From: the human T2T-CHM13v2.0 reference genome, Homo sapiens
Assembly: GCA_009914755.4 (NCBI GenBank)
Contig: CP086569.2
Span: forward strand, 27,232,001-27,296,000
Direction of reading: 5' to 3'
DNA length: 64,000 nucleotides
Shown here: in pieces, positions 15,491 to 20,247 of the stretch
How the letters are laid out: the number at the start of each line of letters is the position of its first letter
Position numbering within the stretch: the stretch's first letter is position 1
Position numbers and translations under genes: made by a program
Notes under the pieces: generated by a model
Databases searched by the model: none
Seen by the model: the letters and a program-made list of their open reading frames with translations, nothing else
Told to the model about the DNA's origin: nothing

Positions 15491-16864
15491 TTTGGTTGGT
15501 TACTAATAAGAAAAGTCTTGGGATTTAGAGATTTTGTTTACCTTATTTACATGGGAATCTGATTATGCATGATTTCTTTGACATGTATGTTTTTGCAAAA
15601 GTGGAAAAAGAGATGGCAAAAGAGCTGAACTGCTGAATCTGGGAAATGTAGGAATATTAGGAGCCTTCATGAGTACAAAGAAAATGATTTTTTAAATTAT
15701 GACTCTAAATATAACTGAACTCACTTCAGATGCATTTAGAATATTTGCATAAAAGAGGATTTGATTTTGGCTGCTCCAGAAACTACTGGAAGAAGGAAAG
15801 AGTACTAGAACTCAGCTAAACCACAGTGACTCGTTACTTCTCTTCGTTACTTTTGGGAATCAGAGACATAGATTTTGTTGATATTAGTTATTCAAATGAA
15901 ATAAACATGAATGTGCATACATTGTCTTTGTTTTCCAAGGAGCTAACTTTTGGATACAATAGCAATTTAATGAAAATTATTTAGAGAATAACATGATAAT
16001 TAAAACCAGATGATTTTAGAAACAAGAATAATGTTGAATTCATTAATTGATTCATAAAATAGTTACTTTCAATGAATATTGGAGTCATTTCCAAATGTGA
16101 AAGCTTATTAATATCTAATGCTTGTAGCAGTTTTATTTTGTAGAAGTATGTCAATATTGATAAATGATGATACTTTTTATTGAGGTTTATATATTATACG
16201 TATTGCCGTGAGTGGATGAAAAAACTTTCAGAAGGCTGAACTAGAGAACACAAGAAACTTGGGCAATTATTACACCACATGGGTCTGAGAAATAATGAAT
16301 ACTCTCTACTAGGATTCACCAAACATATATCTAAGCTGATCAATTTAGGACACTTCCACTGAGGAGATGTGAAGTGTACATTCAGCTGAAGTGTCATCGT
16401 AATTGTGTGCCTTCTCAGTTATTGGGCAAGTTAAAGAGCATGATGAATGGTTGTAGTATAATGGTGTATTTCCTTCTCATCTCTTGCACTAAAGACATGT
16501 GAAAGCATGTACCACCTGCTTTGACATTGATTCCCAGGTGCATGAGTTGCTCCTCTGTTTTTAGACCACATTTGTTTTTATCCCTCCGCATATCCACATT
16601 GATACTGACACTGTTTCATTTTAGTTTTAGACATATGACAAATCATATCACATTTGAAATTGTAAGTGTATATTTCATGAAGCCTGTATTGGTGTTTTCT
16701 TCAGTGTATTTCTGTCATGTTCCAGTCTCAAGACACAAAGTATAAAACAAAAACCTAAACTAATAGGGGCAGGAGGATACAGCTTGATGGTAACAGTGCA
16801 TGAATGTATGGATAATTTTATCATATTTACATATGATTGATTATGTATCCCTTTTGCTTTTCAG

Positions 16865-16893
16865 TGTCTTCTCAGAAACAAGCAGCCTTGAAG
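16865..16893 (+). CDS. 29-nt coding exon (exon A) of repeat cassette, ANKRD30-like gene
   Basis: Acceptor ttttgcttttcag|TGTCTTC and donor CCTTGAAG|gtaatt. Reads (G)TG TCT TCT CAG AAA CAA GCA GCC TTG AAG = VSSQKQAALK. The phase-1 entry matches the phase-1 exit of the 2911-2978 exon and of exon B. Confidence 0.65.
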
Positions 16894-16987
16894 GTAATTA
16901 CACATTCATTTCTGTTTTGAACTGTTAACTATATAGTCTGTGAAATATATTTTATGTATTGATTATTTTGTTTCAAATCCCATTCAG

Positions 16988-17060
16988 GCTACAAGTGATA
17001 AGAAAGATTCTGTTTTGAATATAGCCACAGAAATAAAGGATGGACAAAAATCTGGGGCAG
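16988..17060 (+). CDS. 73-nt coding exon (exon B) of repeat cassette
   Basis: Acceptor cccattcag|GCTACAAG and donor GGGGCAG|gtaatt. [24 protein letters not shown] with phase-1 exit. Together A+B = 102 nt = 34 aa, resembling ANKRD30A repeat text (VSQKDVCLPKATHQKEIDKINGKLE). Confidence 0.65.
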
Positions 17061-18742
17061 GTAATTTTGCAAAACACATTTAATGTCATGTTCACTCAGG
17101 ATAGAAGAGAACTTCTCTTCCTTGAATAAATCGCAGGGGGCTCATTGAATCTGCACATTCTGATTCAGGAGGCCTGAGATTCTGCTTTTGTAATAACTTC
17201 TTGGGTGACGCTGATGCAACTGGTCCTTGGCCATGATCTGTGTAGTAAGATTATATTCTTCCCCACAGTGAAACTGGCAAGAACGACTGGAGAGCAGTGC
17301 AAGATATAACAGGTTAAGGGACAGCATATTCTTGCTTTAATTCTACAGCATGTTTCCATCGTAAAGGGAAGGAGAAAGAGATTAAGTGATAAAAATTATA
17401 GGCATCAGATCATATTGTTAAAACCAGATGGAAGAAGTGATTGGAATAACCCATAAACAATGTAGAAAGAGAATTGAGACCTCTGATGTGGTAATTATTT
17501 TACTCAAGGAAGAGGGATTGAGCGGCAAGAAGGAGGGAAAAGAAGATGTTATTTATGTAATTTTGGGGTTTCTGCTGCAGAAACCTGATGGGACTCACTT
17601 CAGATGCATTTGGAATATTTGCATAAAAGAAGATTAGATTTTGGCTGCTCCAGGAACTACTGGAAGCAGGATAGAGTGTTAGAATTGTGGTGACCCACAG
17701 TGACTCATTACCCCTCTTTGTTACTATTGGGCATGAGAGATATATGTTTTGTTGGTATTAGCTATTCAAATAGGATAATCATGAATATGTATACATTGGC
17801 TTTGTTTTTCAAGGAACTAACTTTTGGATAAAATAGCAATTTAATGAAAATACTTTAGAGAATAACATGATCCTTCAAACCAGACTATTTTGGAAACAAA
17901 AATAATGTTGAATTCATTAACTGACTCCTAAAGTGGTTATTTTCAATGAATATCAGAGCAATTTCCAAATGGAAAAGCTTATTCATATTTAATGCTTTTA
18001 GTAACTTTATTTTGTATAAGTTTGCCAAATTTGATGGTTTATTATACTTTTTGATGAGGTTTATATATTATACCTTCTTGCCATGAATGGATGAAGAAAC
18101 TTTCTGAAGGCTAAACTAGAGGATTCAAGAAATGTAGGCACATTATGACACCACAGAGGTGTGAGAAATAAAGAATATTTTATACTAGGATTCACCAAAC
18201 ATATATTTAAGCTGATCAGTTCGGGACACTTCCACAGAGCACTTGGGAAGTGTACATTCAACTAAAGTGCCATTGTCATTGTGAACCTGCTCAATTGTCA
18301 GGCAAGTTTAAGAGCATGCTAAATATTTGTAGTATAATGATATAAATCCCTCTGATGTCTTACATGAAAAACATGCAGGAGCATTAATCACCTGCTTCGA
18401 CATTGATTCCCAAGTGTATGAGCTGCTGCTCTGATTTTAGATCACATTTGTCCTCATCACTCGGCATATCCACATTGATGTAGACACTGTTTTATTGTAG
18501 TAATTGACATATGAAGAATAATATCACATATGAAATTGGAAATGTTTGTTTCATGAAGACTATACTTCTGTTTTCTACATTGTAATTCTGTCATGTTCCT
18601 GTCCCAATACACAAAGTAGAAAACATCAAAGCCTACGCTAATTCAGGCAGGAGGATACAGCTTGATGGTAACACTGCATGAATGTATGGATAACTTTATC
18701 ATATTTACATATGAGTGATTATGTATCCCTTTTGGTTTTCAG

Positions 18743-18771
18743 TGTCTTCTCAGAAACAACCGGCCTTGAAG
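18743..18771 (+). pseudogene. Second-unit copy of exon A (A2) with inactivated splice donor (GT>AT), likely a pseudo-exon
   Basis: tttggttttcag|TGTCTTCTCAGAAACAACCGGCCTTGAAG|atatta; ORF intact (VSSQKQPALK) but +1 G is replaced by A. Confidence 0.5.
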
Positions 18772-18864
18772 ATATTACACTCTCATTCATATTTTGAATT
18801 ATTAACTGTATAGTCTATGAAATATACTGTATGTATTGATTATTTTGTTTGAAATCCCATTCAG

Positions 18865-18937
18865 AATACAAGTGACCAGAAAGACTCTGTTTCGAACATA
18901 GCCACAGAAATAAAAAATGAACAAAAGTCCGGGACAG
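18865..18937 (+). CDS. Second-unit copy of exon B (B2), open reading frame and splice sites intact
   Basis: cccattcag|AATACAAGTGACCAGAAAGACTCTGTTTCGAACATAGCCACAGAAATAAAAAATGAACAAAAGTCCGGGACAG|gtaatt = NTSDQKDSVSNIATEIKNEQKSGT. Confidence 0.5.
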
Positions 18938-20247
18938 GTAATTTTGCAATACACATTTAATGTCATGTACACTCAAGATAGAGGAGAACTTCCCTTCCCT
19001 GAATAAATCAGCAGGGGGCTCATTGAAGCTGCACATTCTGATTCAGCGGGCCTGAGATTCTGCATTTGTAATAAGTTCTGGAGTGATGGTGCTTCTGCTG
19101 ATTTTTGGCCATCATCTGAGTAGTAAGATTATAGACTTCCCTGCATTGAAATTGGGAAGAAGAACCATTGGAGAGCAATTCAAGACATAACAGGCTGAGG
19201 GGACAGCATAATTTTGCTTTAATTCTACAGGATGTTTCCATCCAGAGGGGAAGGAGAACAAGATGAAGTACTAGAAATTATAGGCGCCAGATCACATTGC
19301 TAAAACCAGAGGGAAGAAGTGATCGTAATAAGCCATAAACACTACAGAATGAGAAGTAACGAGACCGCTGATGTAGTAATTATTTTCCTCAGGGAAGAGG
19401 GATTGTGAGGCAGGAAGAAGGGAAAAGAAGTTATTTATTTAATTTTAGGGTTTCTGCTGAGGAAACCTGAGGGAACTCACTTCAGATGCGTTTAGAATGT
19501 TTGCATGAAGGAAGATTTGATTTTGGCTGCTCCAGGGACTACTGGAAGCAGGATAGAGTGCTAGAATTGTGATAAACCACAGTCACCTGTTACCCCTCTT
19601 TGTTATTATTGGATATCAGAGATATATGTTTTGTTGTTATCAGTTAAATGAGATAAATGTAAATATGCATACACTGGCTTTGTTGTTCAGAGAGCTAACT
19701 TTTGGATAAAATATCAATTTAATGAAAATACTTTAGAGAATAACATGATCCTTCAAACCAGACTATTTTAGAAACAAAATAATGTTAAATTCTTTAATTG
19801 ACTCCTAAAGTATTTATTTTTAATGAATAGTGATTTCCCAATGCACAACCTTATTCATATCTAATGCTTGTAGCAACTTTATTTTGTGTAAGTATATCAA
19901 ATTTGATAATTTTTATTCATTTTGATTAGGTTTGTATATTATACCTTGTTCCCATGAGTGACTGACAAAACTTTCTGAAGGTTAAACCAGAAAATACAAA
20001 AGTGTAGACTCATTATTATACCACATGGGTATGAAAAATAATGAATACCATATAATAGGATTCACCAAACATAGATCCAAGGTGACCAATTCGGCACACT
20101 TCTACTGAGGAGCTTTGAAGTGTACATCATCTAAAGTGTAATTGTCATTGTGTACCTGCTCAATTGTCAGGCAAGTCAAAGAGCACGATGAATATTTGTA
20201 GTATAATGGTTTAAATCCTTCTGATGTCTTGTATGAAAGACATGCAC

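What the first reader, a model, noticed from the sequence alone, without database searches (positions are those of the whole stretch)
15718..20247. Tandem 1.9-kb cassette duplication carrying phase-preserving exon pairs, caught in mid-decay
Three units start at 15718, 17593 and 19475 with period about 1.88 kb. Each full unit carries a 29-nt and a 73-nt exon (102 nt, 34 codons), so adding or removing units keeps the reading frame; this is a coding VNTR at the exon-cassette level. Unit 1 has intact AG/GT signals on both exons. Unit 2 keeps both ORFs (VSSQKQPALK / NTSDQKDSVSNIATEIKNEQKSGT) but the 29-nt exon has lost its donor (gaag|gtaatt became gaag|atatta), so unit 2 is probably skipped or mis-spliced. 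Unit 3 is truncated before its exons at 20247, fused to a partial Alu. The minus-strand track ORFs 16194..16397 and 18061..18261 are paralogous by-products of this duplication, not genes. Copy number here is likely polymorphic or assembly-sensitive.
Basis: seen in the sequence. Interest (0 to 1): 0.6.

Follow-up and report, generated by a model that had tools for sequence, protein, structure and literature searches.

The report
Remnant ANKRD36-type exon-pair tandem repeat

Summary
There are three head-to-tail units (15718-17592, 17593-19474, and a partial one at 19475-20246). Units 1 and 2 each carry a 29-nt and a 73-nt exon (102 nt, phase 1 to phase 1). Unit 2's 29-nt exon has lost its donor (GT>AT). 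Unit 3 is cut off at 20246/20247 against a 3'-truncated antisense Alu.

The interpretation needs correcting in three ways.
1. The gene family is ANKRD36, not ANKRD30A/B. The window also holds the last ankyrin-repeat exon (324-461) and the linker exon (2911-2978) of an ANKRD36-like gene, in frame with the array. The 1.9-kb exon-bearing repeat is already catalogued for the 2q11.2 ANKRD36 genes (Warburton 2008).
2. The duplication is old. The units differ by 15-18%, about twice the ape/Old World monkey distance at the same locus, and units 1 and 2 are not sister units.
3. With exact shared runs of only 22-55 nt, and an independent contig confirming the unit 1/unit 2 junction, present-day polymorphism or misassembly is unlikely. 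Copy number does differ between species and paralogs.

Across 13 units, splice flanks, exon lengths and open frames are conserved, but the peptide sequence is not. The copy is most likely truncated or pseudogenised. Interest is low.

The parts
324..461 (+). Exon A: last ankyrin-repeat exon of an ANKRD36-like gene (…[46 protein letters not shown])
   Evidence: The acceptor tttag| and donor |gtaagt can be read. Pfam Ank_2 scores 27.8 bits against a cut-off of 27.3. It is 85% identical to database fragment P0024. Homologous exons sit in the gibbon, proboscis-monkey and orangutan gene models.
2911..2978 (+). Exon B: linker exon (V)IFKLISEYKRKKYEELSINGNP. It ends with a single G (phase 1) that pairs with the TG of the 29-nt exon to make Val.
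   Evidence: The acceptor catag| and donor |gtaaga can be read. It is 20/22 identical to the gibbon ANKRD36B-like model P0020. The in-frame join is shown.
15718..17592 (+). Repeat unit 1 (1875 nt), the first unit of the array. The same array start is shared by the homologous loci L003, L004 and L006.
   Evidence: The upstream flank has no homology to the unit ends.
16774..16864 (+). Intronic block just upstream of the 29-nt micro-exon. It is the most conserved stretch of the whole unit. Its unit 2 counterpart is at about 18652-18742.
   Evidence: The top 60-column windows by mean identity (0.87-0.90, against a unit mean of 0.82, sd 0.03) start at 16774-16825. Splice-flank conservation is reached by only 0.16% of placements.
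16865..16893 (+). Unit 1, 29-nt exon ((V)SSQKQAALK); AG and GT intact
16988..17060 (+). Unit 1, 73-nt exon ([24 protein letters not shown] plus 1 nt); AG and GT intact
17593..19474 (+). Repeat unit 2 (1882 nt), 83.5-83.9% identical to unit 1
18743..18771 (+). Unit 2, 29-nt exon ((V)SSQKQPALK). The acceptor is intact and the donor is destroyed (GT>AT at 18772-18773). It is the only one of 13 units compared that has this defect.
18865..18937 (+). Unit 2, 73-nt exon (NTSDQKDSVSNIATEIKNEQKSGT plus 1 nt); AG and GT intact
19475..20246 (+). Repeat unit 3, only the first ~772 nt. It ends about 375 nt before the point where its 29-nt exon would begin.
20247..20478 (-). Old antisense Alu that lacks its 3' end and poly(A) at the junction with unit 3. 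This marks a non-homologous breakpoint, not an insertion site.

Best explanation
The region is a 2.4-unit relic of the 1.9-kb exon-pair tandem repeat that characterises the ANKRD36 gene family. It sits in its canonical place in an ANKRD36-like paralog of a hominoid genome: last ankyrin exon, then linker exon, then a ~14-kb intron, then the array.

Each unit is a symmetric cassette. It enters in phase 1, carries a 29-nt exon, a ~94-nt intron and a 73-nt exon, and leaves in phase 1. It encodes 34 hydrophilic residues of a probably disordered spacer. Any number of units can therefore be spliced in a row without changing the frame. Such arrays grow, shrink and homogenise by unequal exchange or conversion between units (inferred; the proboscis-monkey mosaic unit shows it directly).

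In this copy the three units are old and were inherited from an ancestral multi-unit array. Only unit 1 is still splice-competent. Unit 2's micro-exon has lost its donor, so using unit 2 leads to a premature stop unless both of its exons are skipped. Unit 3 lost its exons at a non-homologous breakpoint inside an Alu. That breakpoint also joins the array to a different, Alu-rich sequence context in which no C-terminal ANKRD36 exons were found. The copy is therefore most likely a truncated or pseudogenised family member (inferred), not a nascent coding VNTR.
For: Family and position:
- The exon-pair translation hits only ANKRD36/36B/36C-like primate proteins (E down to 3e-24, 70-79% identity).
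- Exons A and B hit a gibbon 'ANKRD36B-like' model with the same exon order (E=1e-30). Exon A passes Pfam Ank_2.
- Whole units are 80-82% identical over ~1.87 kb to units of the gibbon and snub-nosed-monkey ANKRD36B-like arrays.
- Warburton 2008 (PMC2588610, Table 2B) lists 1.9-kb-unit arrays of 26.5, 21.3 and 13.5 copies at 82-85% identity inside FLJ41632, UNG2430 and KIAA1641 at 2q11.2, plus 3.4-copy arrays of the same family.

Age:
- K2P is 0.18 for u1-u2, 0.17 for u2-u3 and 0.21 for u1-u3. The window differs from the monkey locus by 0.07-0.09 in the flanks and 0.10 in the orthologous 5' part of unit 1.
- Bootstrap support is 100% for u1 with the monkey units and 100% for u2 with the gibbon a1/a3 units.

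Cassette logic:
- In 13 units from 5 arrays the exon lengths are always 29 and 73 nt. 12 of 13 units keep the donor of the 29-nt exon, 12 of 13 keep the acceptor of the 73-nt exon, and 12 of 13 frames are open, against an 11% background.
- Splice-flank identity is 0.913 against 0.823 +/- 0.032 (P~0.002). There are no indels in exon columns (P~0.026). Exon identity equals intron identity (0.83) and pooled pN/pS is 0.74.
- The peptide is hydrophilic (Kyte-Doolittle -0.97, 28% charged). An AF2 model of a two-repeat chimpanzee fragment has pLDDT 54 and no secondary structure.

Decay:
- The donor loss is unique to unit 2. Skipping the 29-nt exon, or retaining the intron, gives a stop. The Alu at the junction is truncated.
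- No family exons were found in 20247-64000.
- Exons A+B differ from gibbon at 8 nonsynonymous and 1 synonymous sites, and all six exon A changes are derived on the window's lineage.
- The gibbon counterpart has a stop in its first 29-nt exon and only 1.24 units. An orangutan paralog keeps only a 230-nt unit remnant.
Against: - The locus could not be named and no transcript evidence is available.
- Exons A and B and both unit 1 exons are intact and in frame, so a functional short-array gene is not excluded.
- The search for C-terminal exons relied on two short orangutan fragments and on a sequence recalled from memory, because the protein database returned no full-length ANKRD36. Absence is therefore weakly supported, and such exons could also lie beyond 64000.
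- The gibbon locus is ortholog-like only in its 5' part (K2P 0.04). Near the array it is 0.09-0.19, so no true ortholog of units 2 and 3, or of the 20247 junction, was seen.
- Interlocus gene conversion could distort both the tree and the dating.
- The peptide alignment shows a conserved core (DSVSNIATEIK), so the amino-acid sequence is not wholly unconstrained.
Confidence: 0.8

Rival explanations
1. A functional short-array paralog. The gene is expressed, includes the unit 1 cassette (with unit 2 skipped as a pair, or rescued by a cryptic donor), and splices on to exons beyond the array or the window. The product would have ankyrin repeats and one or two 34-aa spacer modules.
For: Exons A and B and both unit 1 exons have intact AG/GT signals and one continuous frame. 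Unit 2's 73-nt exon keeps both of its signals. A cryptic GTATAG donor 36 nt downstream of the lost one would keep the frame without a stop. The monkey counterpart has at least 5 units, all with intact exons.
Against: The cryptic donor is weak and would leave only a 57-nt intron. No downstream family exon was found in 44 kb. Exons A+B show an excess of nonsynonymous change on this lineage, 8 to 1. The gibbon counterpart carries a stop in its 29-nt exon. No close protein (>85% identity) is on record.
Confidence: 0.22
2. One reading: a recent or ongoing tandem duplication of an ANKRD30-like exon cassette, now decaying, whose unit number is polymorphic or assembly-sensitive.
For: The tandem structure and frame-neutral cassette are real. 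Unit number differs between species and paralogs. The monkey locus carries four units that are 98-99% identical, so the family can still expand.
Against: The units are 15-18% diverged. Units 1 and 2 are not sister units (100% bootstrap). The divergence is about twice the ape/monkey distance at the same locus. The longest exact shared runs are 22-55 nt, well below the ~130-230 bp (minimal efficient processing segment, Waldman and Liskay 1988) or the several hundred bp of identity at NAHR hot spots that established work finds necessary for efficient homologous exchange in mammals. An independent contig reproduces the unit 1/unit 2 junction at 100% identity. All named hits are ANKRD36-family, and the ANKRD30A repeat has an 11.1-kb unit.
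Confidence: 0.06
3. An assembly artefact: a falsely duplicated or collapsed segment.
For: Tandem repeats in segmentally duplicated gene families are often misassembled (a general point made in PMC2588610).
Against: A false duplication would give near-identical copies, whereas these differ at about 1 site in 6. Logan contig L005 (2432 nt, from another data set) matches 15451-17866 at 100%. The same array start and first unit are present in three other primate assemblies.
Confidence: 0.02
4. A non-genic megasatellite built from transposable-element fragments, in which the 'exons' are coincidental open frames.
For: Warburton 2008 lists one 3.4-copy array of this 1.9-kb family among megasatellites characterised by a MER5A1 element.
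Against: The 29/73-nt segments are the exons of annotated ANKRD36-like gene models. Their lengths, splice signals and open frames are conserved well beyond the background of the unit. The array follows in-frame ankyrin and linker exons.
Confidence: 0.02

Closest known systems
Intragenic 1.9-kb tandem arrays of ANKRD36, ANKRD36B and ANKRD36C at human 2q11.2 (Warburton et al. 2008, BMC Genomics 9:533, Table 2B, repeat family 'intra (5)': FLJ41632, UNG2430, KIAA1641)
   Same: The unit length is ~1.9 kb and inter-unit identity is 82-85%. Each unit carries the 29+73-nt exon pair encoding the VSSQKQ…DSVSNIATEIK… 34-aa module. The array sits after the ankyrin-repeat and linker exons.
   Different: Only 2.4 units instead of 13.5-26.5. 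One cassette is disabled and one is truncated. No downstream coiled-coil exons were found within 44 kb. The equation of the old clone names with ANKRD36C/36/36B rests on my own knowledge, apart from the gene-name overlap seen in PMC4079513.
Short arrays of the same 1.9-kb family (3.4 copies at 2q11.2, MER5A1-type, >89% identity; 3.4 copies at 16p11.2, BC012355, >88% identity; Warburton 2008, Tables 2C and 2D)
   Same: They are small dispersed offshoots of the same repeat family lying in segmental duplications.
   Different: Copy number (2.4 against 3.4) and unit identity (82-85% against >88%) do not match either listed array, so this seems to be a different, unlisted locus. I could not map it.
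ANKRD30A intragenic repeat
   Same: It is also a gene with ankyrin repeats that contains an exon-bearing tandem repeat. That it belongs to the related ANKRD26-like family rests on my own knowledge.
   Different: The catalogued unit is 11.1 kb, with 4 copies and >95% identity. No ANKRD30-named protein appeared among the hits.
Other frame-preserving exon-cassette arrays: the NBPF Olduvai/DUF1220 1.5-kb units, the LPA kringle IV-2 5.6-kb unit, and DMBT1 (Warburton 2008, Table 2B)
   Same: The principle is the same: a tandem genomic unit carries one or two exons whose combined length keeps the frame, so unit number sets the number of protein modules.
   Different: Those arrays are 95-99% identical and copy-number polymorphic in humans. 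This one is 82-85% identical, tiny and degenerate, and its module appears disordered rather than a folded domain.

Membership tests
ANKRD36-type 1.9-kb exon-pair tandem repeat (Warburton family 5) | Tandem unit of about 1.9 kb | tested here: met
   The units are 1875 and 1882 nt, with spacing of 1869-1885 nt.
ANKRD36-type 1.9-kb exon-pair tandem repeat (Warburton family 5) | Old, diverged units (82-85% identity within arrays) | tested here: met
   81.6-85.0% between the window's units, compared with the 82-85% listed in the paper.
ANKRD36-type 1.9-kb exon-pair tandem repeat (Warburton family 5) | Full-length DNA homology of the unit to units of arrays annotated as ANKRD36(B)-like | tested here: met
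   80-82% identity over ~1.87 kb to units in gibbon L001 and snub-nosed-monkey L002, the loci that encode the proteins named ANKRD36B-like.
ANKRD36-type 1.9-kb exon-pair tandem repeat (Warburton family 5) | Each unit carries a 29-nt and a 73-nt exon (34 codons, phase 1 to phase 1) encoding VSSQKQxAxK / [24 protein letters not shown] | tested here: met
   Met for units 1 and 2. Unit 3 is truncated before its exons.
ANKRD36-type 1.9-kb exon-pair tandem repeat (Warburton family 5) | The unit contains a MER5A1 element | not testable with these tools
   No transposable-element library or RepeatMasker is available. The paper states this for one array of the family.
Full-length ANKRD36-family gene | N-terminal ankyrin-repeat exons followed by the linker exon, in frame with the array | tested here: met
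   Exon A passes Pfam Ank_2 at 27.8 bits (cut-off 27.3). Exon B is 20/22 identical to the gibbon model. The frame is continuous. More 5' exons lie outside the window.
Full-length ANKRD36-family gene | C-terminal coiled-coil exons downstream of the array | tested here: not met
   No hit in 20247-64000 with the orangutan fragments that contain C-terminal exons or with a remembered ANKRD36 C-terminal sequence (a lead only). This is a weak test, because no full-length family protein could be retrieved.
Full-length ANKRD36-family gene | Chromosomal location 2q11.2 or a named paralog or pseudogene locus | not testable with these tools
   No primate reference genome is searchable here. The only exact match is an unannotated Logan contig.
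ANKRD30A/ANKRD30B exon repeat | Repeat unit of ~11 kb at >95% identity, and protein similarity to ANKRD30 | tested here: not met
   The unit here is 1.9 kb at ~83% identity. The catalogued ANKRD30A unit is 11.1 kb x 4. All named hits are ANKRD36-like.
Polymorphic coding VNTR / macrosatellite | Long tracts of identity between units that allow frequent unequal homologous exchange | tested here: not met
   The longest exact shared runs are 28 nt (u1/u2), 55 nt (u2/u3) and 22 nt (u1/u3).
Polymorphic coding VNTR / macrosatellite | Unit number varies among individuals | not testable with these tools
   No population or pangenome data are available. One independent contig agrees with the window across the unit 1/unit 2 junction.
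Polymorphic coding VNTR / macrosatellite | Unit number varies between homologous loci over evolutionary time | tested here: met
   The window has 2.4 units, the proboscis monkey at least 5 (four of them 98-99% identical), gibbon L003 1.24, and orangutan paralog L006 a ~230-nt remnant.

The most novel reading that the evidence does not exclude
What selection preserves in this repeat family may be a splice-competent, frame-neutral cassette rather than a peptide. That would include a ~100-nt intronic element upstream of the 29-nt micro-exon (16774-16864) acting as a dedicated micro-exon definition signal. The window's copy would then be a still-transcribed, hominoid-specific short ANKRD36 paralog that uses its single remaining working cassette.
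Probability: 0.12. Interest if true: 0.4.

Novelty: already known. Interest (0 to 1): 0.15.

Why it matters
It matters mainly for annotation hygiene.
- The region belongs to the ANKRD36 family, not ANKRD30. This family lies in segmental duplications.
- The minus-strand ORFs are not genes.
- The array should not be treated as a candidate polymorphic coding VNTR without population data.

It also gives a small, clean illustration of how exon-cassette arrays age. Splice flanks, exon length and open frame persist for tens of millions of years while the encoded residues drift. Individual cassettes die by a single splice-site hit or by a breakpoint. None of this is surprising to a specialist in primate segmental duplications.

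Tried and rejected
- TRF did not report the array because its period limit was 500. That is not evidence against the repeat.
- The Rfam scan of the whole window found nothing.
- No protein search returned a full-length ANKRD36 protein, only fragments under 200 aa. 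The third search, with the proboscis-monkey unit peptides, added nothing new. I therefore could not extend the monkey array or see what lies downstream of it.
- Exact-sequence look-ups for window ORFs 16521-16745, 20102-20272 (which spans the unit 3/Alu junction) and 19020-19241, and for P0022, found nothing. The unit 2/unit 3 and unit 3/Alu junctions thus lack independent confirmation.
- Logan contig L005 is unspliced genomic-type sequence, so it gives no splicing evidence.
A chimpanzee two-repeat fragment was used instead. Its low confidence is compatible with disorder, but the alignment was shallow (17 sequences).
- I considered whether unit 2's AT donor could define a U12-type AT-AC intron and rejected it. 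ATATTAC departs from the RTATCCT consensus (established knowledge) at positions 5-7, and the intron ends in AG.
- I considered Alu-Alu recombination as the origin of the 20247 junction and rejected it. The Alu lacks its own 3' end there and no Alu sequence is present on the unit side.
- My first attempt to join exon B to the candidate terminal exon used a start one base off (14846 instead of 14847) and gave a false frameshift. Reading one search gives an open frame ending at TGA 14944-14946.
- The sequences recalled from memory (ANKRD36 N- and C-terminal parts, ANKRD26, the Alu consensus) were used only as leads. The two exons they pointed to were then verified with Pfam and database proteins.

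Full report
OBSERVATION. The repeat finder reports eleven direct-repeat families between 15.7 and 20.3 kb, all with start-to-start spacing of 1869-1885 nt. blastn of unit 1 against the whole 64-kb window returns exactly three copies: 15718-17592, 17593-19473 (83.5% over 1885 columns) and 19474-20244 (80.2%). Nothing else matches. TRF missed the array only because its maximum period was 500.

The exon details can be read directly from the sequence. Unit 1 has a 29-nt exon at 16865-16893 and a 73-nt exon at 16988-17060, each flanked by AG and GT. Unit 2 has the same exons at 18743-18771 and 18865-18937, but the donor of its 29-nt exon is AT instead of GT (18772-18773). Unit 3 stops at 20246. From there an antisense Alu runs to 20478. 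The two minus-strand ORFs (16194-16397 and 18061-18261) align with each other. The same stretch is interrupted by stops in most other units, where the longest open runs are 24-48 aa.

WHAT GENE IT IS. The conceptual translation of the two exon pairs hits only primate proteins named, where named at all, ANKRD36C, ANKRD36B-like or similar (E down to 3e-24, 70-79% identity). No hit is named ANKRD30.

A remembered ANKRD36 N-terminal sequence, used only as a lead, pointed to two further + strand exons in the window. Both were then verified.
- Exon A, 324-461 (tttag|...|gtaagt), passes Pfam Ank_2 at 27.8 bits against a cut-off of 27.3.
- Exon B, 2911-2978 (catag|...|gtaaga), encodes IFKLISEYKRKKYEELSINGNP, which is 20/22 identical to a gibbon 'ANKRD36B-like' model with the same exon order.

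Exon B ends with a lone G. That is exactly what the 29-nt exon needs (G+TG = Val), and every 73-nt exon also ends with a lone G. Joining A, B and both unit pairs gives one open 137-codon frame. The window therefore starts inside an ANKRD36-family gene, and the array sits where that family's arrays sit.

IT IS A CATALOGUED REPEAT FAMILY. Warburton et al. [quoted passage not shown] They have 26.5, 21.3 and 13.5 copies at 82-85% identity, in FLJ41632, UNG2430 and KIAA1641. The paper also lists 3.4-copy arrays of the same family at 2q11.2 and 16p11.2. The same table gives the ANKRD30A repeat as 11.1 kb x 4 at >95% identity, which does not fit this region. PMC4079513 likewise lists ANKRD36, 36B and 36C among genes with long internal repeats. 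The window's 2.4-copy array matches none of the listed arrays in copy number or identity, so it is probably a further, smaller locus of the same family. I could not map it, because no primate reference genome is searchable with these tools.

HOMOLOGOUS LOCI. Three loci fetched through database proteins are collinear with window 1-15199, and their arrays start at the same unit phase.

| Locus | K2P to the window's flanks | Array state |
|---|---|---|
| Gibbon L003 | 0.04 over the first 4.7 kb, but 0.09-0.19 close to the array | 1.24 units; its first 29-nt exon carries a stop (VSSQK*) |
| Proboscis monkey L004 | 0.07-0.09 | at least 5 units (the locus is cut off inside the array) |
| Orangutan L006 | 0.06, further than gibbon, so a paralog | a ~230-nt unit remnant, then C-terminal exons 5.4 kb later |

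These distances suggest the window is from a hominoid, most likely human. That is an inference. A Logan contig, L005, is 100% identical to 15451-17866. This shows that the flank/unit 1/unit 2 junctions are not specific to one assembly.

AGE AND ORIGIN OF THE UNITS. Ungapped identities are 83.9% for u1-u2, 85.0% for u2-u3 and 81.6% for u1-u3, giving K2P values of 0.17-0.21. In a neighbour-joining tree of 11-12 units from five arrays, u1 groups with the proboscis-monkey units (100% bootstrap). u2 groups with two units of a different gibbon array (100%), and u3 joins u2 (84%). Units 1 and 2 are therefore not each other's closest relatives.

Their divergence is about twice the window-to-monkey distance, which is 0.07-0.09 for the flanks and 0.10 for the orthologous 5' part of unit 1. 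If one takes 25-30 million years for the ape/Old World monkey split (established knowledge) and assumes a clock without conversion, the units separated roughly 50 million years ago. That date is an inference. This is a relic of an old multi-unit array, not a duplication caught in the act.

The longest exact runs shared by units are 28, 55 and 22 nt. That is well below the identity tracts that efficient mammalian homologous exchange is known to need. Recurrent unit-number change in present populations is therefore unlikely, though it remains untested.

THE FAMILY IS NEVERTHELESS DYNAMIC. In the proboscis monkey, units n2-n5 are 97.8-99.1% identical to one another (K2P 0.009-0.02). Unit n1 is a mosaic. 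Its first ~1170 nt track window unit 1 at 90-93% identity, but from the 29-nt exon onward it is 97-100% identical to n3. This is the footprint of recent unequal exchange or conversion, with the switch point at the most conserved part of the unit.

WHAT IS CONSERVED. Across 13 units the exon lengths are always 29 and 73 nt. All 13 units keep the acceptor of the 29-nt exon and 12 of 13 keep its donor, the exception being the window's unit 2. For the 73-nt exon, 12 of 13 keep the acceptor and all 13 keep the donor. 12 of 13 frames are open.

Rigid-layout permutation within the unit gives the following.
- Splice-flank identity is 0.913, against 0.823 +/- 0.032. Only 0.16% of placements reach it.
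- Only 2.6% of placements have no gap columns in the 29+73 layout.
- 11% of random 102-nt windows are stop-free, against 12 of 13 observed.

By contrast, exon substitution identity (0.82-0.83) equals that of the rest of the unit, and pooled pN/pS is 0.74. A core motif, DSVSNIATEIK, is nevertheless recognisable in most database fragments. The most conserved stretch of the unit is the ~100 nt of intron just upstream of the 29-nt micro-exon.

The 34-aa module is hydrophilic: Kyte-Doolittle -0.97, 28% charged, rich in S, K, Q and T. AlphaFold2 on a chimpanzee two-repeat fragment gives pLDDT 54, pTM 0.12 and no secondary structure (shallow alignment). My reading, which is an inference, is that the cassette encodes a disordered spacer whose number and splice-ability matter more than its exact sequence.

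STATE OF THIS COPY. Unit 1 is fully splice-competent. For unit 2:
- skipping only the 29-nt exon gives an immediate stop (…GAEYK*);
- retaining the 93-nt intron gives a stop (…LLTV*);
- a cryptic GTATAG donor 36 nt downstream would keep the frame, but it is weak and leaves only a 57-nt intron.

A U12-type reading of the AT donor does not fit the consensus. Unit 3 has no exons.

Downstream of 20247 the sequence context changes. There are 46 Alu segments (27% of bases), against 3 upstream of the array and none inside it, and G+C is higher. No ANKRD36-family exon was found there with the database fragments or the remembered C-terminal lead.

Exons A+B differ from the gibbon counterpart at 8 nonsynonymous sites and 1 synonymous site, and all six exon A changes are derived on the window's lineage. 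Together with the stop in the gibbon cassette and the near-complete array loss in the orangutan paralog, this points to a truncated or pseudogenised family member. I put that at about 0.55-0.6. A functional short-array gene is at about 0.2.

VERDICT. The cassette logic, the unit 2 donor loss, the unit 3 truncation and the by-product ORFs are right. The family assignment (ANKRD30), the implied recency and the expectation of polymorphism or assembly sensitivity are not supported. The feature belongs to a repeat family and gene family that are already catalogued. Interest is low.

Noticed in passing
L004 26657-35923 (proboscis monkey, CM106364.1, ~116.84 Mb): The homologous array has at least 5 units. 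Units n2-n5 are 97.8-99.1% identical to each other, all with intact exon pairs, in two alternating exon variants (n2 resembles n5, n3 resembles n4). Unit n1 is a mosaic: like window unit 1 for its first ~1170 nt, and 97-100% like n3 from the 29-nt exon onward. This is either a recent lineage-specific expansion or conversion, or an assembly artefact. The locus is cut off inside the array.
   Followed up: partly
L006 30462-30688 and 35946-37799 (orangutan, CM009263.2, ~16.77 Mb): This paralog is collinear with window 1-15199 (K2P 0.06). Its array is reduced to a ~230-nt remnant (unit positions 1-57 joined to 1422-1593), and C-terminal ANKRD36 exons follow 5.4 kb later. The annotated model splices the ankyrin exon straight to the C-terminal exon.
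   Followed up: partly
L003 15721-32611 (gibbon, CM016958.1, ~71.6 Mb): The divergence from the window is uneven: K2P 0.04 over window 1-4760, 0.087 over 13300-15199, and 0.17-0.19 at the array flank and first unit. This suggests a chimeric history through conversion or rearrangement between paralogs. The array has 1.24 units, and the first 29-nt exon carries a stop (VSSQK*), which is where the NCBI model ends.
   Followed up: partly
L001 7005-12634 (gibbon ANKRD36B-like array, ~46.95 Mb): Units a1 and a3 are 96.4% identical, while a2 is only 79% identical to either. This is a higher-order period of two units (~3.75 kb). a1 and a3 encode a divergent module (VSPQKQSAWK / VTFKKKVSFLNIATRIMGSRKSGT).
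   Followed up: no
window 14847-14946 (+): This is the counterpart of the terminal exon of the proboscis-monkey model P0021 (82% identical at the protein level). It has an acceptor AG at 14845-14846, is in frame with the phase-1 end of exon B, and is open for 33 codons up to TGA at 14944-14946. The polypyrimidine tract is weak. It could be an alternative last exon that bypasses the array, or a gene-prediction artefact.
   Followed up: partly
window 16774-16864 (and 18652-18742): The ~100 nt of intron immediately upstream of the 29-nt micro-exon is the most conserved part of the 1.9-kb unit across five arrays (mean identity 0.87-0.90 against 0.82). It is more conserved than the exons themselves, and may be a branch-point or enhancer region needed to define the micro-exon.
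   Followed up: partly
window 20247 onward, compared with 1-20246: There is a sharp change of context at the unit 3 breakpoint. 46 Alu-like segments (about 12 kb, 27% of bases) lie in 20247-64000, against 3 in 1-15717 and none in the array, and G+C rises from ~0.35 to 0.36-0.44. This is compatible with a deletion or a segmental-duplication boundary in an Alu-rich region.
   Followed up: partly
window 324-461: Exon A carries six nonsynonymous substitutions relative to the gibbon counterpart and no synonymous ones. In all six the proboscis-monkey sequence differs from the window's state (agreeing with gibbon at five), so they are derived on the window's lineage.
   Followed up: partly
window 15412-15482: A perfect (AT)22 run is followed by (ACACACAT)3, about 235 nt upstream of the array start. 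The homologous stretch is the least well aligned part of the flank in the other species.
   Followed up: no
window 11771-13270 and 39771-41135: These segments recur several times in the gibbon, monkey and orangutan loci in both orientations. One of them contains an ORF (11863-12234, minus strand) that looks like the C-terminal part of LINE-1 ORF2. They are presumably L1 fragments, but were not checked against a repeat library.
   Followed up: no
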